This document shows positions 310 to 11,421 of a stretch of 64,000 bases of DNA, one piece after another (within the stretch, counting starts at the first letter, position 1; each line of letters opens with the position of its first letter). Origin of the DNA: an uncultured Candidatus Saccharibacteria bacterium (lineage in GTDB: Bacteria > Patescibacteriota > Minisyncoccia > Phycocordibacterales > UBA6899); contig CAZERF010000001.1 of the NCBI GenBank assembly GCA_964515375.1, positions 115,243 to 179,242 on the forward strand, written 5' to 3'. Made by a program: the position numbers and the translations under genes. A model generated the notes under the pieces. The model did not search any database. It was not told where the DNA came from and was given only the letters and a program-made list of their open reading frames with translations.

Positions 310-1336
<1,027 letters not shown>

Positions 1337-1354
1337 TCCTCTCACTTCCTTCGT

Positions 1355-1810
1355 ATGGAGATCCTTCACGCATTCGGTATAGAGTGGAAACTGCTCGCCA
1401 TTCAGGTGATCAACTTCGCGGTGGTGCTTTTTGTGTTGCATCGCTTTGCGTATACGCCGGTCATGGCGATCATCGCGAAACGCGAGAAGGAGATCGCGGA
1501 CGGCGTTCGTGCCGCGGAGGATGCCAAGCAAGAAGAGTCCCGTATTCGCGCGGAAAAGGAGGCAATACTCGCTCATGCGCGCGAGGAAGGAGGAAAGATC
1601 GTCGAGGAATTGCGCAAATCAGGTATCGAATCCGAACGTACGATCGTGCGTGAAGCGCAGGAGATGTCCTCTTCGATCCTGACCGATGCGCATGCACGTG
1701 CAGAAGAGGAACGCGCGCACTTGCTTCGCGAGAGCGAGAAGGAGATCGCGCGCGCCGCACTGCTTGCTGCAGAAAAGATCTTACGAGCCAATAACGCGGC
1801 CAATTCCTAG
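1355..1810 (+). CDS. atpF: F0F1 ATP synthase subunit b
   Basis: 151 aa with one N-terminal TM helix followed by a long charged (E/K/R/A-rich) helix. It sits between atpE and atpH. Confidence 0.8.
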   Translation: MEILHAFGIEWKLLAIQVINFAVVLFVLHRFAYTPVMAIIAKREKEIADGVRAAEDAKQEESRIRAEKEAILAHAREEGGKIVEELRKSGIESERTIVREAQEMSSSILTDAHARAEEERAHLLRESEKEIARAALLAAEKILRANNAANS

Positions 1811-1813
1811 ACC

Positions 1814-2218
1814 ATGCGCGCTTCGACCTACGCCAAAGCATTGCGAGAAGTCCTTCGATCACGGACTCATGATGAGGACGTTCTTGTCGAGCATTTTGTC
1901 GCGACAGTCCGCGCGAACGGTCATGAGTACCTTCTTCCCAGTATCGTGAAGGCCTTCGGGCGATTGGCGGAGAAAGAAGTGCGGAACGAGACCATCGAGG
2001 TCACTTCCGCTCACCCCCTCTCTGAGGACGATGTGGTTGGGGTCTTGAAACGACCGGAGTACCGCGACCTCCTCACCGCATCGCATCGTCGCGTCGCACG
2101 GAAGGTTGACGAAAGTATTGTCGGAGGAGTCGTCGTGCGCGCCGGTTCTCGTCGCGTTGACGGAAGTTACAAACGCGCATTGCTTGATATTTACCAAGAA
2201 TTCACCAACACCTTATAA
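1814..2218 (+). CDS. atpH: F0F1 ATP synthase subunit delta (OSCP), shortened form
   Basis: The N-terminus YAKALREVL and the C-terminal ...[29 protein letters not shown] match the delta/OSCP signature. At 134 aa it is shorter than the typical ~175 aa. Confidence 0.75.
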
Positions 2219-2241
2219 GACTTGAGACTCATCACTTCACC

Positions 2242-3804
2242 ATGGAACACGTAGTAGAAAAACTAAAAAAGCAGATCATCGAATTCACTCCGAAGGCCAA
2301 GCAAGAGAAGGTCGGCGTGGTCATGTCCGCCGCAGACGGTATCGCGGAGGTGGACGGACTCGACGATGTCATGATGTCCGAGATGGTCGTCTTCGAAACG
2401 ACGGAAGGGAAGAGTCTTGAGGAAACGCTTCAAGGTGAGGACGCGCTCATTGGCATGGCGCTCAATCTCGAAGAGGATTCGGTAAAGATCGTCGTGCTTG
2501 GTGATGCGACGAAGATCAAGGAAGGTATGCTCGTGCGTTCGACCGGACAGATCCTCTCGATCCCGGTCGGTGATGAGTTGGTGGGGCGTGTGGTGAACCC
2601 GCTCGGAGAAGCGTTGGACGGAGGTGTGCCCGTACGCACCGCTAAACGCAATCCGATCGAGCGTCGCGCGTATGGTGTGATCGAACGCAAATCAGTCTCG
2701 ACTCCGCTTCATACAGGTATCAAGGCGATCGACGGCATGGTGCCGATCGGTCGTGGGCAGCGCGAGCTCATCATTGGTGATCGTCAGACCGGGAAGACCG
2801 TTGTCGCGATCGACACCATTTTAAATCAATTGAATGAACCGGTTGCGAACCGCCCCATTTGTATCTATGTGGCGATCGGACAAAAGGATTCCAAGATCGC
2901 ACGTATCGTTCAACAGCTCCGCGATCGCGGTGCGATGGACTATACGATCGTTGTTTCCGCTCCCGTGTCATCGTCGGCCGCGCTTCAATTCCTTGCTCCG
3001 TACGCCGGGGCAGCTATTGGCGAGTACTTCATGGACGCGGGTCGCGACGCACTCGTGATCTATGACGATCTTTCCAAGCATGCGGTGGCGTATCGTCAAA
3101 TGTCACTTCTCTTGCGCCGTCCGCCCGGACGTGAGGCATATCCCGGAGACATTTTCTATCTCCACTCTCGCTTGCTTGAGCGTGCCGCCCGCCTTTCCGA
3201 CAAGATGGGCGGAGGATCTTTGACGGCACTTCCGATCATTGAGACACAGGAGAATGACGTGTCAGCATATATTCCGACGAACGTCATCTCGATCACAGAC
3301 GGACAGATTTATCTTGAGGCGGACCTCTTCAACAAGGGTATTCGCCCCGCGATCAACGTGGGTGTGTCTGTTTCTCGTGTCGGTTCATCCGCCCAAACCA
3401 AGGCCATGAAAAAGGTTGCCGGTCGCTTGCGTCTTGAACTCGCACAGTTCCGCGAACTTGAGGCATTCGTACAGTTCTCTTCTGATCTCGACTCCGAAAC
3501 CAAGCAGCGCATCGAGAAGGGAAAGCTCATGGTGGAGGTTTTGAAGCAAGACAAATCTGTCCCGCTTCCGTTCGAGAAACAGGTGGCAATCATCTTTGTT
3601 GCCGGCGCGGATGTGTTGAATGATTGCGACAAGACTCGCGTCTCCGCGATCGAGTCCGCGTTCTTTGCACTGCTCGAATCTCAGTACCCGGAGGTCTTGA
3701 AGGAGATCGCCGCATCGCGCGATCTTTCGGATGAATCGCAAAAGACCCTAAAGGATGCGGTGGAAACCCTCCGCGCAACCCGCCCGGAATTCTTCGGGAA
3801 GTAA
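2242..3804 (+). CDS. atpA: F0F1 ATP synthase subunit alpha
   Basis: 520 aa with Walker A GDRQTGKT and typical alpha-subunit conservation throughout. Confidence 0.97.
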
Positions 3805-3810
3805 ACGAAC

Positions 3811-4125
3811 ATGAGTATTAAACCTGAAAAAGAGAGAATCATAAAATTGTGGATCATTGGAGTGATCGAGTTCTTCGCCTCTCTTCTTCTCTTGGCTCCA
3901 ACGTTTAATACTCATGCGTGGAAGTTGAGTTGTGGAGAGTCTGCATTTCCTTGTGAAATGGGTGCCGTTTTGCTTCCGAACAGCTTACTCTATTGGGGGT
4001 ATTCATTAATGCTGATCATTTCATTTGTGGTTATTGTACTCAAAAATTTGAAGTGGGCTTGGTTCCTAAACCTCACACTCCTTATTCTTTTTGTCCCCTT
4101 TACATTTATCGCCGCAAATATTTAA
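3811..4125 (+). CDS. Small hydrophobic membrane protein of unknown function, 104 aa, 3 predicted TM helices. It is inserted between atpA and atpG.
   Basis: The ORF fills the atpA-atpG gap exactly: its stop TAA at 4123-4125 is followed by the atpG ATG at 4127. It is visibly more AT-rich than the flanking atp genes. I recognise no homolog. Confidence 0.5.
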   Translation: MSIKPEKERIIKLWIIGVIEFFASLLLLAPTFNTHAWKLSCGESAFPCEMGAVLLPNSLLYWGYSLMLIISFVVIVLKNLKWAWFLNLTLLILFVPFTFIAANI

Positions 4126-4126
4126 C

Positions 4127-5056
4127 ATGTCTCTCAAAGCCGTTAAAAACAAAATAAAGTCGATTGACAAGACTCGCCAAGTGACGAAGGCGATGGAAGC
4201 GGTCTCTGCGGTCAAGATGCGCAAGTCACAGTCGCTCGCACTCGGAACTCGCCCGTACGCGCTTTCTGCGCTCAAGATCCTTCGGAGTATCTCGGGTTCG
4301 ATCGAAGCGGCAAACCACCCGCTCACAACCGAGCGCCCGGTCACACGCACGATCCTTATTGTCGTGTCCGCGGACAAGGGGCTTGCCGGAAGCTATGGTG
4401 CGTCACTCTTGAAGCAGACGTATCGCTTCATGGCGGAGCATGCGCTCACAAAGGACAATACCGCCCTTATCATGATCGGAAAGAAAGCGCATGAGCATTT
4501 TGCAAAGCGTGGTTGGACGATTCTTGCACATTATGAGCACTGGAGTGATCACGTGGATTTCGACGCGATCCGACCGCTTGCGGACATGGTGAAGGAATTA
4601 TTCGTGAGTGGATCTTATGACCGGGTGCATATTGTGTACACAAATTTTGTTTCGACCCTGAAGCAGGCCGTGTATACACGACAACTCTTGCCGGTCTCGT
4701 TTGCGCGTGTCGAAGAGGTGGTGCGTGGGATCACCCCCGAAAAAGGCAAATTCTCCGACACTGCAAAGGGGGATGACTTGCGTGTGAAAGAGTACGTCTT
4801 CGAGCCCTCCGCGGAGACGATCCTTACAAATTTGATCCCACTTCTTTTCAATATTCAGATCTACCACTCGATCCTTGAGGCGAACGCGTCGGAACATTCC
4901 GCGCGTATGATCGCCATGAAGAATGCGTCCGACAGTGCGGGGGATATCTCGCGTGGACTCAAGCTTTACTTCAACAAGGTACGTCAATCCGCGATCACGA
5001 GAGAGGTCTCCGAGATCGTTGGTGGCATGGAGTCGATGCGTATCGTTGATCGTTAA
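4127..5056 (+). CDS. atpG: F0F1 ATP synthase subunit gamma
   Basis: MSLKAVKNKIKSIDKTRQVTKAMEAVSAVKMRK... is the typical gamma N-terminal helix, and the C-terminal helix (...ITREVSEIVGGMESM) matches too. The track ORF starts at 4091, but the ATG at 4127 avoids overlap with the upstream ORF. Confidence 0.9.
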   Translation: MSLKAVKNKIKSIDKTRQVTKAMEAVSAVKMRKSQSLALGTRPYALSALKILRSISGSIEAANHPLTTERPVTRTILIVVSADKGLAGSYGASLLKQTYRFMAEHALTKDNTALIMIGKKAHEHFAKRGWTILAHYEHWSDHVDFDAIRPLADMVKELFVSGSYDRVHIVYTNFVSTLKQAVYTRQLLPVSFARVEEVVRGITPEKGKFSDTAKGDDLRVKEYVFEPSAETILTNLIPLLFNIQIYHSILEANASEHSARMIAMKNASDSAGDISRGLKLYFNKVRQSAITREVSEIVGGMESMRIVDR

Positions 5057-5073
5057 TCATTCATCACATCATC

Positions 5074-5457
5074 ATGGACGAAGATATGAACATGGATCGG
5101 ATCGCGAAGGAGGATGTCATCGACGCCGCGAATGACCCCGAGCAGTCCGACACGCTTGACCTCCTCACGCTTTATTTCGAGCAAGAGTGCGGAGAAAGCA
5201 AGGATGCCGCGGTGATTATCAAGGAAGCGCACGATGCCGCGATGATCCTCTTTGACGCCAAACGTTACGAGGATACTGTCGAGTGGCTCGACCGAGTCGC
5301 AACCAAACTCTCCGATGAAGAAGGTCCCGACAGTGAACTCTATATGGCCTTCGCTGAAAGTGAGGAGCTTGAGGATCTTCGCATGAAGGCGACCGACAAG
5401 ATCTTTGGTGGCGAAGAAGAAGAGGAAGATGATGATTATAATAATGATGATGAATAA
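5074..5457 (+). CDS. Acidic hypothetical protein, 127 aa, with a poly-E/D tail. It lies between atpG and atpD.
   Basis: Clean ORF in the atpG-atpD gap. The C-terminus is EEEEEDDDYNNDDE, and the central segment AHDAAMILFDAKRYEDTVEWLDRV resembles a segment of the next ORF. Confidence 0.5.
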   Translation: MDEDMNMDRIAKEDVIDAANDPEQSDTLDLLTLYFEQECGESKDAAVIIKEAHDAAMILFDAKRYEDTVEWLDRVATKLSDEEGPDSELYMAFAESEELEDLRMKATDKIFGGEEEEEDDDYNNDDE

Positions 5458-5458
5458 T

Positions 5459-5866
5459 ATGCACGAAGGAGTCCCGCAAGAAGAACAAAATACTCAACCC
5501 ATTGAGTCTCAAGATGAAGATAATATGAACAAGGAAGCAACAGTAAAGGTCATCACTCCGGAATCGGTCGTCGCCACACTCAAGGAGGGGGACGTGAGTC
5601 AACTTATCGAATACCGAAAAGCCCTTGAAGAATCCATGGGTGAGACGACTGAAGGACGCTTTGATCTCGAAGAAATCATGATTCGTCTCTATGTTGCTGC
5701 AGGAATGCACGATGAAGCACTTGATACGGTTGACGCAATGCTTGATATGGCAGACGGTGAACGCAATGATGCACAATATGAACGATTCCGTGCGATGGGG
5801 ATGGAAATAAGCGCTTTGTTGAGTCAGAACAATATGCCGATCGAAACACCGAGAACAGACAACTAA
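5459..5866 (+). CDS. Acidic hypothetical protein, ~135 aa, probable paralog of the 5074..5457 product
   Basis: The track ORF starts at 5405 inside the previous gene. The ATG at 5459 (MHEGVPQEEQ...) comes right after the upstream stop and is the likely start. The segment LYVAAGMHDEALDTVDAMLDM parallels YEDTVEWLDRV of the neighbour. Confidence 0.5.
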   Translation: MHEGVPQEEQNTQPIESQDEDNMNKEATVKVITPESVVATLKEGDVSQLIEYRKALEESMGETTEGRFDLEEIMIRLYVAAGMHDEALDTVDAMLDMADGERNDAQYERFRAMGMEISALLSQNNMPIETPRTDN

Positions 5867-5885
5867 GATTATTATTTATTCGTAA

Positions 5886-7295
<1,410 letters not shown>

Positions 7296-7315
7296 TCATT
7301 CATTGAATCTTTGAT

Positions 7316-7549
7316 ATGAAACTTACCATCACACAGATCGACAAAGTGCTTTGGAAGGGTGATGCGACGAGCGTGACCGTTCCGGGCGCGAGCGGCACAA
7401 TGACCGTACTTGATCATCAGATGCCACTCATCACAACTCTCGAGAAGGGTGTCGTGATGGTGACCGCGGAAAACGGCGAAAAGACTTCATTTCCCATCAC
7501 ATCAGGCTTTCTTGAGGTGGGGAAGAGTGAGACGGTGGTGCTTGTTTAG
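7316..7549 (+). CDS. atpC: F0F1 ATP synthase subunit epsilon, N-terminal beta-sandwich domain only (77 aa)
   Basis: The sequence MKLTITQIDKVLWKGDATSVTVPGASGTMTVLDHQMPLITTLEKGVVMV matches the epsilon N-domain. The ORF stops after 77 aa and a hairpin/T-tract follows, so no C-terminal helical hairpin is encoded. Confidence 0.8.
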   Translation: MKLTITQIDKVLWKGDATSVTVPGASGTMTVLDHQMPLITTLEKGVVMVTAENGEKTSFPITSGFLEVGKSETVVLV

Positions 7550-7611: not shown

Positions 7612-10323
7612 ATGCGTGATCAAAGCGAGCGTGAATGGTATCGGTTGCCCCGCGAAGAAGTATATACGATCTTGCGCACGGGGGAAGCGGGTCTTTCGGA
7701 TGACGAAGCGGCGACTTGTCGCTTGAAAATGGGTACAAATGTCCTTTCGGACCCCAAGAAATCGTCTTTTGTTGATCGTATCGTCGATGAACTTAAGAAT
7801 CCGCTTGCTTTTGTGCTTCTCTCCGCGGGGATCGTTACGACGCTTATCCGCGAATATGTCGACTCGACGGTCATCTTTGTTGCGCTCATTATCAATGTTG
7901 CAATCAGTCTCTATCAGCAGGGTCGTGCGGACAAGGCGTTTGTCCGCCTTCGTGATTCACAGGAGAAGCATGCAACCGTCATCCGTTCAGGAGAAAAGCG
8001 ACGGATCCTCGCACGTGAACTTGTTCCCGGCGACATGATCGAGGTCGCTTCCGGAATGAATGTTCCTGCCGATGCACGGATCATTACCGCAACGCGTTGT
8101 GAGGTCAACGAGTCCGCGCTCACGGGAGAGTGGATCGACATTACCAAGGAGGATGCGTACTATGACCGCCTTCTCCCGCTTTCGGAACGGAAGAATATGC
8201 TCTATATGGGTACGCTCGTCACCTCGGGCGTCGCGCAGGCGGTCGTTGTGGCGACGGGTGACCATACTGAATTCGGGAGTATCGCTACTGCACTTAAAAA
8301 ACAAAACGAAGCGATCACTCCTCTTCAGGAAAATATCGCCAACATCGCGCGTTTTCTTTCGTATATCGTGATCGGCGCGCTCGTCGTGATCTTTGTCCTT
8401 GGAATGTTGCGCGACATTCCCTTTGCGGAACTCCTCTTGATATCGATCGCGATCGCGGTTGCCGCTATTCCTGAAGGAATGCCCGCCGCAGTCACTGTCT
8501 CTCTGGCCATCGGGATGGAGTCGATACTTCGCCGTGGAGGATTGGTGCGCAACTTGCTTGCCGCCGAGACGTTGGGTTCGACGACGGTGATCATGACTGA
8601 CAAGACCGGAACACTGACAAAAGGAGAGATGCGCATCGCGCACGTCGCAACCCTCGGAAGTCTCCGTGCCTCACTTCCTCGTGGCTCCGATGACCCTCAT
8701 GTTCCGCAAAACGGAGATGAACACGATCTTCTTCAGTTTGCGACACTTGCCTCCGATGCATATATTGAGCGCGCGCCAAAGGAAGGAGGGGCGGCTGAGG
8801 ATACCGTTGTTGGTCGTCCTGTTGAGAGAGCGATCGTCTCTGCCGCACTCGAATCCGGCATCGATCAACGCGCGTTGCTTCAAGATTTCCCGAGGATCGA
8901 GTTCCTGCCTTTTTCTTCCGACTTTCCCGTCGCGATGTCTCTTCATCGCGTGCGTGGATTGGCGGCGCACCGTTTGTACATGAGTGGTGCTCCCGAATTC
9001 TTGCTTTCTCATGCATCACTCGCCTACATCGCGGGGCGTGCTGAATCGATGAGTGAGGCGGTGCGAAATATTCTCTCTACAACGCTTTCGCGTTACGCAA
9101 GTGACGGACTCCGTGTCATTGCGGTCGCCTATCGTGAAGGCGAGGTGAAACATCTCGGAGAAACAGGAGGCGATCGACGTCGCAAAGAACTCTTGCGTGA
9201 GTTAGTTTTTGTTGGATTCATTGTCTTCCGTGATCCGTTGCGCGAGGATGCGGCTTCTTCGATTTCAGAGGCGCAAGATGGAGGTACAAGGGTCATTATG
9301 GTGACGGGAGACAATCCGGAGACCGCGCGTTCGATCGCTTTTGAGTGTGGAATATGGCACGAAGGTGACCTTGTCCTTTCGGGTGCCGATGTGGAAAAGA
9401 TGAACGACCGGACCCTCTCCGACATGCTCCCTCGTACGTCGGTCTTTGCGCGCATGACTCCCGACAACAAGATGCGGATCGCGCGTTTACTCCTTGCTTC
9501 GGGTGAGGTTGTCGCGATGACGGGAGACGGAGTGAACGACGCTCCTGCTTTGCGCGTCGCTTCGATCGGCATCGCGCTCGGTTCCGGTACTGAGGTTGCA
9601 AAGGAGGCTTCCGATCTCGTTCTGCTTTCCAATAGTTTCCGCATTATTGTTGCGGCGATCGAAGAGGGGAGAAGAATCATCGACAACCTGCGCAAGATCG
9701 TCGCGTACCTCCTTTCTACATCGGGAGGAGAGATCATTGTTGTCGGGGGAGCGCTTGCATTCGGTCTTCCTCTTCCGCTTCTTCCCGCGCAGATCCTCTG
9801 GACGAATATCCTCTCCGAGGGATTCATGAATTTTTCATTTGCCTTCGAGCCGAAAGAGGCGGACCTCATGCAACGCGATCCGAAGCACTCCAGTGCGCGC
9901 ACAATGCTTTCACGCCGGCTCATGGTCTTTGTGACAACGCTCGCACTCTCTTCGGGGGCACTCCTCCTGCTCTTGTATTGGTACCTTATGAAAATGACCG
10001 ACATGTCGCTTGACGGCGCAAGAACCGTCATGTTCATTGCGCTCACGCTGGTGATGGTCTTTTCGGTCTTTTCTCTCAAAGATCTTCGCGCGCCGATCTG
10101 GAAGACGCGAATCTGGAATAATCCTTACATCTTTGCGTCCATAGGAATCACCCTTTTTGGACTTTTTCTCGCACTCTTTGTCCCTCCGGTCACGGATATG
10201 CTGCGGCTCGTTCCCGGTGAGGCAAAGGCGCACCCCTTCCTCTTCGCGGCTGTCGTTGTGGCGAATATTCTCGCCATTGAACTCGCTAAATATCTGCTAT
10301 TTTCACGGCGCGTGCATTCGTGA
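7612..10323 (+). CDS. P-type cation-transporting ATPase (type II, SERCA/PMCA-like)
   Basis: 903 aa carrying the phosphorylation motif DKTGTLT, TGDN and the hinge GDGVNDAPAL. A cation-ATPase N-domain and 10 TM segments are present. Confidence 0.9.
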   Translation: MRDQSEREWYRLPREEVYTILRTGEAGLSDDEAATCRLKMGTNVLSDPKKSSFVDRIVDELKNPLAFVLLSAGIVTTLIREYVDSTVIFVALIINVAISLYQQGRADKAFVRLRDSQEKHATVIRSGEKRRILARELVPGDMIEVASGMNVPADARIITATRCEVNESALTGEWIDITKEDAYYDRLLPLSERKNMLYMGTLVTSGVAQAVVVATGDHTEFGSIATALKKQNEAITPLQENIANIARFLSYIVIGALVVIFVLGMLRDIPFAELLLISIAIAVAAIPEGMPAAVTVSLAIGMESILRRGGLVRNLLAAETLGSTTVIMTDKTGTLTKGEMRIAHVATLGSLRASLPRGSDDPHVPQNGDEHDLLQFATLASDAYIERAPKEGGAAEDTVVGRPVERAIVSAALESGIDQRALLQDFPRIEFLPFSSDFPVAMSLHRVRGLAAHRLYMSGAPEFLLSHASLAYIAGRAESMSEAVRNILSTTLSRYASDGLRVIAVAYREGEVKHLGETGGDRRRKELLRELVFVGFIVFRDPLREDAASSISEAQDGGTRVIMVTGDNPETARSIAFECGIWHEGDLVLSGADVEKMNDRTLSDMLPRTSVFARMTPDNKMRIARLLLASGEVVAMTGDGVNDAPALRVASIGIALGSGTEVAKEASDLVLLSNSFRIIVAAIEEGRRIIDNLRKIVAYLLSTSGGEIIVVGGALAFGLPLPLLPAQILWTNILSEGFMNFSFAFEPKEADLMQRDPKHSSARTMLSRRLMVFVTTLALSSGALLLLLYWYLMKMTDMSLDGARTVMFIALTLVMVFSVFSLKDLRAPIWKTRIWNNPYIFASIGITLFGLFLALFVPPVTDMLRLVPGEAKAHPFLFAAVVVANILAIELAKYLLFSRRVHS

Positions 10324-10335
10324 TACACTCACAGC

Positions 10336-11421
10336 ATGGAAACCGCATTTTATGTTTTGATCGCGCTTTTTGTGGGCGCCGGAGTTGTTTGGTTCATTGT
10401 GGGACGCAAAAGGGAAGAGGTTGAGGGTACTCAAAACAAGGAGACCATGCTCCTTTTGCAACAATTGAACGAGATGAACAAACTCCTTGATACTCGTCTC
10501 TCGGAGTCGCGCAAAGAGATGACCGACGCGGTTCGTGTGCAATTTTCCGAATCCCAGCGCCTTCTCCGCGAGATCAATGAGCAGATGAACAAAAGTCTCG
10601 TTGATGTCGCGCGCGAACAGACCAAGACCAACGAAGCAACGACACGATTCATGTCGATCGCCGAGCAGCTCGCCAGTCTCGAAAAGACATTGAAGCACCA
10701 GAAACAGCGCGGGAACTTGGGCGAAGCATCGCTTGAACTCATACTCTCCAACATCTTGCCGCCGGGCACGTACAAGATGCAGCACGAGTTCGCGAACAAG
10801 GAAAAAGTGGATGCGATCATCGTCACCAAAGAAGGTGTCATTCCCGTCGATGCAAAGTTCTCGCTCGACAACTACAATCGAGTGACGATGGCGATCGATG
10901 ACAAGCAGCGCGAGGAGCTTGAGAAAGAATTCAAGAATGACCTCAAAAAGCGCATCGACGAGACCGCAAAGTATATTCGCCCCGAAGAGGGGACTCTTCC
11001 GTTCGCTTTTATGTTCATTCCTGCCGAAGGAATCTACTACGACCTGCTGATCAATGAAGTGGGCGCGGTCAAAGTGAATACGCGCAATCTTATTGACTAT
11101 GCCTACAACGACAAAAAGGTGATCATCGTCTCTCCGACGACCTTTGCTGCCTATCTCCAGTCTGTGCTCTACGGGTTCAAGGCGTTCAAGATCGAAGAGG
11201 GCGCCAAGGAGATCGGAAAGCGTGTCGGCGAGCTCGGCAAACATTTGAAGGCGTATGAGGAGTATATGGCGAAGCTTGGTAATGCACTTGGAACTACGGT
11301 CAATCACTACAACGCGGCGCACAAAGAATTAGGAAAGATCGACAAAGATGTGACCCGTATCACGGGTGGAAGTCCGGGGATCGATGTGCTCCAGATCGAC
11401 AAGCCCGACCAAGGAGAATAA
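10336..11421 (+). CDS. rmuC: DNA recombination protein RmuC family
   Basis: N-terminal TM helix, a long coiled coil, then the conserved RmuC C-terminal nuclease-like region (...FMFIPAEGIYYDLL...VIIVSPTTFAAYLQ...). Confidence 0.8.
   Translation: METAFYVLIALFVGAGVVWFIVGRKREEVEGTQNKETMLLLQQLNEMNKLLDTRLSESRKEMTDAVRVQFSESQRLLREINEQMNKSLVDVAREQTKTNEATTRFMSIAEQLASLEKTLKHQKQRGNLGEASLELILSNILPPGTYKMQHEFANKEKVDAIIVTKEGVIPVDAKFSLDNYNRVTMAIDDKQREELEKEFKNDLKKRIDETAKYIRPEEGTLPFAFMFIPAEGIYYDLLINEVGAVKVNTRNLIDYAYNDKKVIIVSPTTFAAYLQSVLYGFKAFKIEEGAKEIGKRVGELGKHLKAYEEYMAKLGNALGTTVNHYNAAHKELGKIDKDVTRITGGSPGIDVLQIDKPDQGE

What the first reader, a model, noticed from the sequence alone, without database searches (positions are those of the whole stretch)
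5074..5866. Tandem pair of paralogous acidic proteins between atpG and atpD
Two adjacent ORFs of 127 and ~135 aa sit between the gamma and beta genes. Both are highly acidic, and the first ends in EEEEEDDDYNNDDE. They share a similar central amphipathic motif: ...YEDTVEWLDRV... in the first and ...HDEALDTVDAMLDM... in the second. This suggests tandem duplication. I recognise no known ATP synthase subunit or assembly factor with these sequences. Their position inside the operon implies co-expression with the F1 genes. They could be F1 assembly chaperones, regulators of the beta subunit, or DNA-mimic-like proteins that are merely hitch-hiking.
Basis: partly seen in the sequence, partly recalled or inferred. 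Interest (0 to 1): 0.65.

Follow-up and report, generated by a model that had tools for sequence, protein, structure and literature searches.

The report
Acidic helical-repeat pair inside atp operon
Two small, very acidic genes between the gamma and beta genes of an ATP synthase operon are real, conserved, distantly related copies of an undescribed protein family found only at this spot in one group of ultra-small bacteria, which suggests an unknown helper or add-on of the ATP synthase.

Summary
ORF1 (5074-5457, 127 aa, net charge -33) and ORF2 (5459-5866, 135 aa, net -20) lie between atpG and atpD with 17, 1 and 34 nt spacers.

Pairwise they look unrelated (BLASTP E=12). Profiles of their two families align collinearly over 87 columns (hhalign 91%, E 1e-6; all shuffled and reversed controls score lower). 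They are therefore ancient paralogues, not a recent duplication.

Both are predicted with confidence as short TPR/PPR-like helical bundles. ORF1 adds a conserved poly-acidic tail with one aromatic residue. No Pfam, NCBIfam, PHROG, PADLOC or PDB family matches.

Family A (ORF1) is under strong purifying selection (dN/dS about 0.06). Its codon composition matches its neighbours. Every member whose flanks are readable follows atpG.

Family B (ORF2) is patchy. It occurs alone, with A, or not at all, and its GC3 is low. Two outgroup operons have no junction gene.

Best reading: a clade-specific, ATP-synthase-linked protein-binding factor of one Patescibacteria clade, perhaps a chaperone for the basic gamma subunit or a loosely bound accessory subunit. 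This function is inferred, not shown. Unrelated cargo genes also sit in these operons, so hitch-hiking remains a live rival, especially for ORF2.

The parts
4127..5056 (+). atpG, F1 gamma subunit (309 aa, pI 9.7, net charge +12). Upstream neighbour and best-guess partner.
   Evidence: PF00231, E 5.6e-84. The ATG at 4127 lies 1 nt after the stop of the preceding ORF. Charge.
5074..5457 (+). ORF1, a family A member: 127 aa acidic TPR/PPR-like protein.
   Evidence: Homologues. Every family A member whose upstream flank is readable follows atpG. dN/dS is 0.06-0.07. GC3 is 0.59, like the neighbours. AF2 pLDDT is 83.7, with six helices.
5104..5406 (+). ORF1 helical domain (residues 11-111; helices 12-20, 27-39, 45-61, 65-83, 88-94, 97-111).
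5242..5310 (+). ORF1 central hairpin motif MILFDAKRYEDTVEWLDRVATKL (residues 57-79), the most conserved part of family A.
   Evidence: K63, R64, Y65, E66, W71 and D73 are invariant among 17 homologues; K63 and D73 stay invariant and Y65 and W71 nearly so in the 28-sequence set. The motif matches TPR-like repeats in giant repeat proteins. It aligns with the ORF2 motif.
5410..5454 (+). ORF1 disordered poly-acidic C-terminal tail GEEEEEDDDYNNDDE, with a single aromatic residue.
   Evidence: The last 20 residues carry net -9 to -13 in all 28 family A members, nearly always with one Y/F (or I/V/L/M) a few residues from the end. AF2 pLDDT is about 50.
5459..5866 (+). ORF2, a family B member: 135 aa acidic TPR/PPR-like protein. 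Its start codon lies 1 nt after the ORF1 stop.
   Evidence: Homologues, at the atpG-atpD junction wherever flanks are readable. pN/pS is 0.24-0.34. GC3 is 0.43, about 2.3 SD below the window's long ORFs. AF2 pLDDT is 79.4.
5459..5554 (+). ORF2 disordered acidic N-terminal extension (residues 1-32), present only in the closest B homologues.
   Evidence: AF2 pLDDT is below 50. The extension is absent from P0029-P0034.
5681..5752 (+). ORF2 central hairpin motif IRLYVAAGMHDEALDTVDAMLDMA (residues 75-98), PPR-like.
   Evidence: Weak PPR hits from Pfam and TIGRFAM at residues 73-96. The family B profile sums to E 8e-9 on a designer PPR protein, with each single repeat insignificant. It aligns with the ORF1 motif.
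5901..7295 (+). atpD, F1 beta subunit (464 aa). Downstream neighbour, 34 nt after ORF2.
   Evidence: PF00006, PF02874 and PF22919.

Best explanation
ORF1 and ORF2 are anciently diverged paralogues, here called family A and family B. They belong to an undescribed protein family restricted to one clade of Patescibacteria (records labelled Paceibacterota, Saccharibacteria or 'Patescibacteria group'). The family is found only at the atpG-atpD junction of the F-type ATP synthase operon.

Each protein is a small, strongly acidic bundle of TPR/PPR-like helical hairpins, which is a protein-binding scaffold. Family A also carries a conserved poly-acidic C-terminal tail with one hydrophobic or aromatic anchor.

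The genes are most likely co-transcribed and translationally coupled with gamma and beta. The proteins most likely act on the ATP synthase itself by binding a basic partner. My best guess for that partner is the gamma subunit (pI 9.2-9.8). The protein could work as an assembly chaperone or holdase, or as a loosely bound accessory or regulatory subunit. A and B probably overlap in function, because almost every genome of the clade keeps at least one of them.

Shown: the genes are real and under purifying selection; the synteny; the A-B homology; the fold class; the acidity. Inferred: co-expression, binding to F1, gamma as partner, chaperone role.

My confidence by step is roughly as follows. 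Real genes: 0.95. A and B homologous: 0.8. ATP-synthase-linked function for A: 0.65. Gamma-directed chaperone specifically: 0.3.
For: Synteny: every family A member whose upstream flank is readable follows atpG. This holds from 89% down to 35% identity, across 8 species-level genomes and many metagenome contigs. A profile search of 1.84 billion representative proteins found only six members, plus TPR-like repeats in three giant proteins, and no copy in another context.

Selection: ORF1 has dN/dS of 0.06-0.07, comparable to epsilon (0.055). Its GC3 tracks its neighbours in all 8 loci compared.

Distribution on a gamma tree: two outgroups (gamma 67% and 57% identical) have no junction gene. All ingroup lineages have A, except one nested clade that has B only. 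A and B occur together in two separate sub-clades.

Operon break: in L038 the operon is interrupted after family A, giving atpG-A-grpE-dnaK, so A stays with gamma.

Charge: family A has net charge -26 to -37, and gamma has +6 to +17.

Spacing: the spacers are 17, 1 and 34 nt, and no terminator signal exceeds chance.
Against: There is no direct evidence of binding, and a multimer prediction was not possible.

The junctions of these operons also hold plainly unrelated cargo, so position alone is weak evidence. Examples are a 23S_rRNA_IVP four-helix protein, NYN and Bro-N proteins, a hydrolase and small membrane proteins.

The function is dispensable in some lineages. L029 has neither A nor B, and L031 carries a frameshifted B.

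Family B is absent from very close relatives of the window (L019 and L021). Its GC3 is 0.1-0.2 below its neighbours in every locus.

Gamma charge and the short delta are the same in outgroups that lack the junction gene, so no compensatory pattern is visible.

The structural matches are generic: Foldseek's best E-value is 0.35.
Confidence: 0.55

Rival explanations
1. Hitch-hikers. The two genes have no role in ATP synthase. They are small cargo genes that settled in a permissive, highly expressed operon junction and do something unrelated, such as acting as an acidic decoy or DNA mimic, or an anti-defence or interaction factor.
For: Operon junctions in this clade carry many unrelated insertions: PF05635 four-helix proteins, NYN, Bro-N, an alpha/beta hydrolase and small membrane proteins. 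ORF2 is present or absent among close relatives. It has atypically low GC3 in every locus. L029 and L031 do without an intact copy.
Against: Family A stayed at one position while gamma diverged to 67% identity. It has dN/dS of about 0.06 and host-like codon composition. No member was found anywhere else among 1.84 billion representatives. There are no phage, PHROG or PADLOC matches. True cargo in the same operon behaves differently: X0 has pS 0.12 and pN/pS 0.81 between lineages whose flanking genes have pS of 0.6-0.8.
Confidence: 0.2
2. Regulator that replaces the missing epsilon C-terminal domain. Epsilon here is only the 77-aa beta-sandwich. The junction protein would supply hydrolysis inhibition or another regulatory contact with the alpha3beta3 head or the beta subunit.
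For: Epsilon is 77-78 aa in nearly every related operon where it is seen, with one ORF call of 81 aa, and matches only the N-terminal part of epsilon models. The junction gene lies immediately upstream of beta. Lineage-specific inhibitors exist elsewhere, such as IF1, the zeta subunit and AtpTheta (my own knowledge).
Against: The epsilon C-terminal helices are basic or hydrophobic and contact the acidic DELSEED loop of beta. A protein with net charge -33 cannot mimic that contact (my own knowledge). Short epsilon variants exist in other bacteria without this family: NCBIfam has epsilon models of 88-102 positions. Whether the outgroups that lack the gene also have a short epsilon could not be seen, because their contigs end. 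There is no similarity to any known inhibitor.
Confidence: 0.12
3. Not paralogues. ORF1 and ORF2 are unrelated proteins that each contain a TPR/PPR-like hairpin, and the profile similarity is convergence of helical-repeat motifs.
For: The window pair shows no pairwise similarity. The first profile comparison gave 1.4%. TPR-like repeats are known to cross-match. Aligned identity is only 11%.
Against: The match covers 87 collinear columns, including the non-repeat first helix, and scores 41.8. Block-shuffled controls that keep the hairpins reach at most 27.8. Family A against true TPR-repeat proteins gives only 25-48 columns and at most 33.2, and family B does not match them at all. The B HMM hits A members at up to 26 bits. 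The two families share the same genomic slot and the same order of predicted helices.
Confidence: 0.15

Closest known systems
p18 subunit of euglenozoan (Trypanosoma, Euglena) mitochondrial F1-ATPase
TPR-type acidic chaperones and adaptors (for example the SHNi-TPR histone chaperone Hif1/NASP, or TPR co-chaperones that bind acidic EEVD tails)
   Different: The matches are generic (Foldseek E>=0.35). No TPR or PPR Pfam model passes its threshold. These proteins are much smaller, with only about two to three hairpins. Their client is unknown.
Dedicated F1 assembly factors (mitochondrial Atp11/Atp12; chloroplast PAB, BFA1 and BFA3) and operon-encoded accessory proteins (AtpI, AtpZ)
   Same: The concept is the same: non-catalytic proteins that act on individual F1 subunits during assembly, or that are encoded inside atp operons without being core subunits (my own knowledge).
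   Different: No sequence match to any ATP-synthase-related Pfam or NCBIfam model at E<=1. AtpI and AtpZ are membrane proteins at the 5' end of the operon, whereas these are soluble and sit between gamma and beta.

Membership tests
One family comprising A (ORF1-like) and B (ORF2-like) | Statistically supported sequence-profile similarity over most of the domain | tested here: met
   hhalign gives 91%, E 1e-6, over 87 columns. Controls score 12.6-27.8 against 41.8 for the real alignment. The B HMM hits A members at up to 26.3 bits. The window pair alone is not detectably similar.
One family comprising A (ORF1-like) and B (ORF2-like) | Same genomic slot and same predicted helix order | tested here: met
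   Both families are seen only between atpG and atpD. AF2 helices 12-20, 27-39, 45-61 and 65-83 of ORF1 correspond to helices 34-42, 47-60, 64-80 and 84-100 of ORF2 in the hhalign register.
TPR/PPR-like helical repeat proteins | Tandem antiparallel helix hairpins of about 34-35 residues forming a solenoid (fold level) | tested here: inconclusive
TPR/PPR-like helical repeat proteins | Sequence match to a curated TPR or PPR model above its threshold | tested here: not met
   The PPR model scores 16.4 bits against a cut-off of 25 for ORF2, and ORF1 has no TPR or PPR hit. One of 28 family A members hits TTC7_N, at E 0.004. The family B profile reaches E 8e-9 on a designer PPR protein only by summing repeats that are individually insignificant.
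Known F-ATP synthase subunits, inhibitors and assembly factors (epsilon C-terminal domain, delta/OSCP, Atp11, Atp12, zeta, IF1, AtpI/AtpZ) | Sequence or structural similarity to the family | tested here: not met
Euglenozoan F1 subunit p18 | Homology to p18 | tested here: not met
   No p18 or ATP synthase chain appears in the PDB sequence or fold searches.
Euglenozoan F1 subunit p18 | Physical binding to F1 alpha | not testable with these tools
DNA-mimic proteins | Acidic surface that imitates the DNA backbone and binds a DNA-binding protein | not testable with these tools
   Only the acidity is shown. The fixed position in the atp operon and the absence of phage or defence matches argue against this class but do not test it.

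The most novel reading that the evidence does not exclude
Family A, and perhaps family B, is a genuine extra subunit of a bacterial F1Fo ATP synthase. It would be a PPR/TPR-like protein that decorates F1 in one Patescibacteria clade. This enzyme also has an epsilon reduced to its beta-sandwich and a shortened delta. If true, it would be a bacterial counterpart of euglenozoan p18 and the first bacterial F1 with a non-canonical subunit composition.
Probability: 0.2. Interest if true: 0.8.

Novelty: new variant of a known kind. Interest (0 to 1): 0.55.

Why it matters
The atp operon is among the most conserved gene arrays in bacteria, and the alpha3beta3gamma core is regarded as compositionally invariant outside Euglenozoa (PMC8311965). 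Here a conserved, strongly selected, unannotated gene sits between gamma and beta throughout a clade of uncultured, reduced-genome bacteria. It has a diverged paralogue that can replace it at the same position. This points to a lineage-specific factor for assembly, stabilisation or regulation of the ATP synthase.

It also gives a concrete, testable handle on energy conservation in Patescibacteria, whose ATP synthase has never been studied biochemically. The operon is small enough to express heterologously.

If the genes turn out to be hitch-hikers, the result is still useful. It would show that this clade's atp operon tolerates cargo at every F1 gene junction.

Tried and rejected
**Spurious ORFs or a wrong frame.** Rejected. 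The conservation, the dN/dS values and the homologue starts all support the called frames. The 185-aa antisense ORF at 5219-5776 has no support.

**Recent tandem duplication.** Rejected. The window pair is not similar, and both copies occur in separate sub-clades.

**ORF2 as a new insertion with target-site repeats.** No flanking repeats were found. The DNA alignment with relatives that lack ORF2 shows only a clean presence/absence difference.

**A split-off epsilon C-terminal domain or delta N-terminal domain.** There are no Pfam, NCBIfam or structural matches. The outgroups also have a short delta but lack the junction gene.

**Co-variation with gamma.** The gamma alignment shows no ingroup-specific insertion, and gamma charge is the same in the outgroups.

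**Phage or defence origin.** No matches.

**Multimer prediction through a fused chain.** The afdb50 fold library was unavailable.

**Literature.** Searches for CPR ATP synthase epsilon, for ORFs between atpG and atpD, and for TPR-type assembly factors of gamma found nothing relevant.

**Promoter and terminator scan.** It gave nothing above the shuffled expectation.

Full report
**1. What is in the window**

Positions 310-7549 hold an F-type ATP synthase operon on the + strand. The genes are:
- atpB, 310-1065
- atpE, 1109-1336
- atpF, 1355-1810
- atpH, 1814-2218
- atpA, 2242-3804
- a small membrane ORF, here called X0, 3811-4125
- atpG, 4127-5056
- ORF1, 5074-5457
- ORF2, 5459-5866
- atpD, 5901-7295
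- atpC, 7316-7549

These calls rest.

ORF1 has 127 aa, pI 4.05 and net charge -33, and ends in EEEEEDDDYNNDDE. ORF2 has 135 aa, pI 4.17 and net charge -20. The spacers are 17 nt (atpG to ORF1), 1 nt (ORF1 to ORF2) and 34 nt (ORF2 to atpD). The simple terminator and promoter scans find nothing above the shuffled expectation.

**2. Are they genes?**

ORF1 has 17 close homologues at 50-100% identity. An exhaustive profile search of 1.84 billion representative proteins adds more distant members, down to 35-40% identity.

Against its nearest relatives, at dS of about 1, ORF1 has dN/dS of 0.06-0.07. The same comparison gives 0.02-0.03 for gamma, 0.01 for beta and 0.055 for epsilon. ORF1's GC3 follows its neighbours in all 8 loci compared.

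ORF2 has fewer relatives, 8 in all after a profile search. Its pN/pS is 0.24-0.34 at saturated synonymous sites, so it too is constrained. Its GC3 is 0.43. That is about 2.3 SD below the window's long ORFs (0.56 +/- 0.057). Family B is 0.1-0.2 below its neighbours in every locus.

All database copies are annotated 'hypothetical protein'.

**3. Where do the relatives sit?**

Every ORF1 homologue (family A) whose upstream flank is readable lies immediately downstream of atpG. In all but one locus it lies upstream of atpD. This holds for 8 species-level genomes (MAGs labelled Patescibacteria group, Paceibacterota, Saccharibacteria or just 'bacterium'), for many metagenome contigs, and for the most divergent members.

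The exception is L038. There the operon is broken after family A, giving atpG, A, grpE, dnaK. A therefore stays with gamma when the operon breaks.

ORF2 homologues (family B) occupy the same junction wherever flanks are readable. I found four arrangements:
- B behind A: the window, L022, L023/L025 and L033.
- B alone: L030, L046 and L047.
- B frameshifted: L031.
- B absent: most loci, including L019 and L021, whose ORF1 is 88-89% identical to the window's.

These rest.

In L029 the junction holds an unrelated 23S_rRNA_IVP four-helix protein instead (PF05635, E 1e-40). Two more distant operons have atpD directly after atpG: L039 (gamma 67% identical) and L040 (57%).

I built a neighbour-joining tree from gamma. 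The two empty operons are the outgroups. All ingroup lineages carry A, except one nested clade that carries B only (that clade also contains L029). The combination of A and B appears in two separate sub-clades.

The simplest history is as follows. A arose at the base of the clade. It duplicated early to give B. B was then lost many times, and A was lost once.

**4. Are ORF1 and ORF2 paralogues?**

The window pair alone shows nothing: BLASTP E=12. Shallow profiles gave an hhalign probability of 1.4%.

After the survey enlarged both families (A7 with 28 sequences, A8 with 8), hhalign gave probability 91%, E 1e-6, score 41.8, over 87 collinear columns. The alignment runs from the first helix through the central hairpin.

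The controls all score lower:
- Reversed profiles: 12.6 and 14.5.
- 40 column shuffles: at most 18.0.
- 40 shuffles in blocks of 8 columns: at most 27.8.

Family A compared with genuine TPR-repeat proteins gives only 25-48 columns and a score of at most 33.2. Family B does not match those proteins at all. The family B HMM hits family A sequences directly at up to 26.3 bits.

The helices of the two independent AF2 models fall in the hhalign register. ORF1 helices 12-20, 27-39, 45-61 and 65-83 correspond to ORF2 helices 34-42, 47-60, 64-80 and 84-100.

I conclude, with confidence of about 0.8, that these are ancient paralogues.

**5. What kind of protein?**

AF2 models ORF1 at pLDDT 83.7 and pTM 0.74. 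The model has six helices and a disordered acidic tail. ORF2 is modelled at pLDDT 79.4, with a disordered acidic N-terminus followed by five helices.

Foldseek finds nothing below E 0.35. The fold class is therefore generic helical repeat, not a specific known family.

Pfam, NCBIfam, PHROGs, PADLOC, the PDB sequence search and a phage tblastn give no significant family and nothing related to ATP synthase.

Family A is uniformly extreme in charge, at net -26 to -37. Its last 20 residues carry -9 to -13, nearly always with one Y/F (or I/V/L/M) a few residues from the end. Family B is acidic (-10 to -25) but lacks that tail.

**6. How it most likely works**

The following points are shown:
- There is one clade-restricted gene family with two diverged branches.
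- Both branches are confined to the gamma-beta junction of the atp operon.
- Both are under purifying selection.
- Both encode an acidic helical-repeat scaffold.

The rest is inferred. Such scaffolds are protein-binding modules. The family's exclusive position, the tight spacing and A's host-like codon composition argue that its partner is the ATP synthase.

Gamma is the most basic subunit (pI 9.2-9.8, net +6 to +17). It is the gene A remains attached to when the operon breaks.

My best guess is therefore an acidic chaperone or holdase for free gamma, or a peripheral accessory subunit. The near-complementary distribution of A and B suggests overlapping function.

Several points weaken this reading:
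- I have no binding evidence.
- L029 and L031 show that the function can be lost.
- Gamma charge and delta length do not differ between operons with and without the gene.
- The operon junctions in this clade carry plainly unrelated cargo.

The contrast with real cargo is informative. X0 differs between the window and L022 by pS of only 0.12, with pN/pS of 0.81, while the flanking genes differ by pS of 0.6-0.8. That pattern indicates recent exchange and weak constraint. Family A shows the opposite pattern. Family B is intermediate.

**7. Comparison with what is known**

The nearest analogy is p18 of euglenozoan F1. It is a small PPR protein bound to each alpha subunit, described as extraordinary because the alpha3beta3gamma core is otherwise invariant (PMC8311965). 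I found no homology to p18.

Other analogies are acidic TPR chaperones such as Hif1/NASP and dedicated F1 assembly factors such as Atp11, Atp12 and PAB (my own knowledge). Membership in any of these is not supported.

The regulator idea, replacement of the missing epsilon C-terminal domain, is possible. It is disfavoured by charge logic and by the existence of short epsilon variants in other bacteria.

**8. Verdict**

The finding is real.

This is a new protein family, probably a lineage-specific ATP-synthase-associated factor. The mechanism is unproven. Interest is moderate to good (0.55). It would be high if the protein proves to be a true extra subunit of a bacterial F1, which I put at a probability of about 0.2.

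Noticed in passing
window 3811-4125 (+): X0 is a 104-aa predicted membrane ORF between atpA and atpG, with its stop 1 nt before the atpG ATG. It belongs to a very divergent family of small three-TM-like proteins with a Cys pair and a 'KKWAxxxNL'-type motif. This family occupies the atpA-atpG junction in many related operons, and L030 has three tandem copies. It has no Pfam or NCBIfam match and low GC3 (0.44).
   Followed up: partly
window 3724-4260 vs L022 1-537: X0 is about 90% identical in DNA between the window and L022 (pS 0.12, pN/pS 0.81). The flanking atpG and ORF1 differ by pS of 0.63-0.82. This points to recent exchange or recombination of the X0 cassette and weak constraint on it.
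   Followed up: partly
window 3810-3823 and 3903-3916: A perfect 14-nt inverted repeat, 79 nt apart, would sequester the X0 start codon in a hairpin. It is kept in L022 with a G-U change. That may only reflect the recent shared ancestry of the cassette. The fold z-score is -1.5.
   Followed up: partly
window 7316-7549 (+): The epsilon subunit is only 77 aa. It comprises the N-terminal beta-sandwich alone, without the regulatory C-terminal helices. It is 77-78 aa in nearly every related operon seen, with one ORF call of 81 aa.
   Followed up: partly
window 1814-2218 (+): The delta subunit is 134 aa and matches only positions of about 60-178 of delta models, so roughly the first 55 residues of the N-terminal domain are missing. 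Delta is equally short (129-135 aa) in the outgroup operons that lack the junction gene.
   Followed up: partly
L029 2918-3757 and 4969-5331; L030 3299-3940 and 6812-7168; L031 3377-3967; L046 3224-3994; L015 9910-10260: Related atp operons carry unrelated cargo at the atpA-atpG, atpG-atpD and atpD-atpC junctions. The cargo includes 23S_rRNA_IVP four-helix proteins (PF05635), NYN-domain proteins, a Bro-N protein and an alpha/beta hydrolase. The operon is unusually permissive to insertions in this clade.
   Followed up: partly
L047 7779-8042; L031 6801-7118; L046 6761-7006; L029 7090-7320 and 7329-7583: A further unannotated family of 76-105 aa sits between atpD and atpC in the clade that has family B only. 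Its recurring motif is '...FEEQL..LE..L....DAKH.P.GGGK.Y..GWG...'. There is no Pfam match for the L047 copy.
   Followed up: no
L038 4001-7961: The operon is broken after the family A gene, giving atpG, family A, grpE (PF01025), dnaK, with no atpD downstream within 3.6 kb. This is a single metagenome contig, so an assembly chimera cannot be excluded.
   Followed up: no
window 5077-5096 and 5516-5535: A short direct repeat matches at 16 of 20 nt. It encodes DEDMNMD in ORF1 and EDNMNKE in ORF2, in both cases just before the first helix. It may be chance or a trace of the duplication.
   Followed up: no
window 5219-5776 (-): A 185-aa antisense ORF spans both genes. It has no support and is probably a by-product of the GAA/GAT-rich sense strand.
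   Followed up: no
window 7612-11421 (+): A P-type cation ATPase (903 aa) and an RmuC-family gene follow the atp operon directly. This arrangement is conserved in the close relatives L019 and L021.
   Followed up: no
window, 25 nt upstream of each atp gene start: None of the atp genes, ORF1 or ORF2 has a recognisable Shine-Dalgarno sequence upstream. Several starts lie 1-20 nt after the previous stop, so coupling or leaderless-like initiation may matter here.
   Followed up: no
L010 2028-2288: An 86-aa ORF with a signal-peptide-like N-terminus lies between family A and atpD in the L008-L010 lineage. It is unrelated to family B.
   Followed up: no
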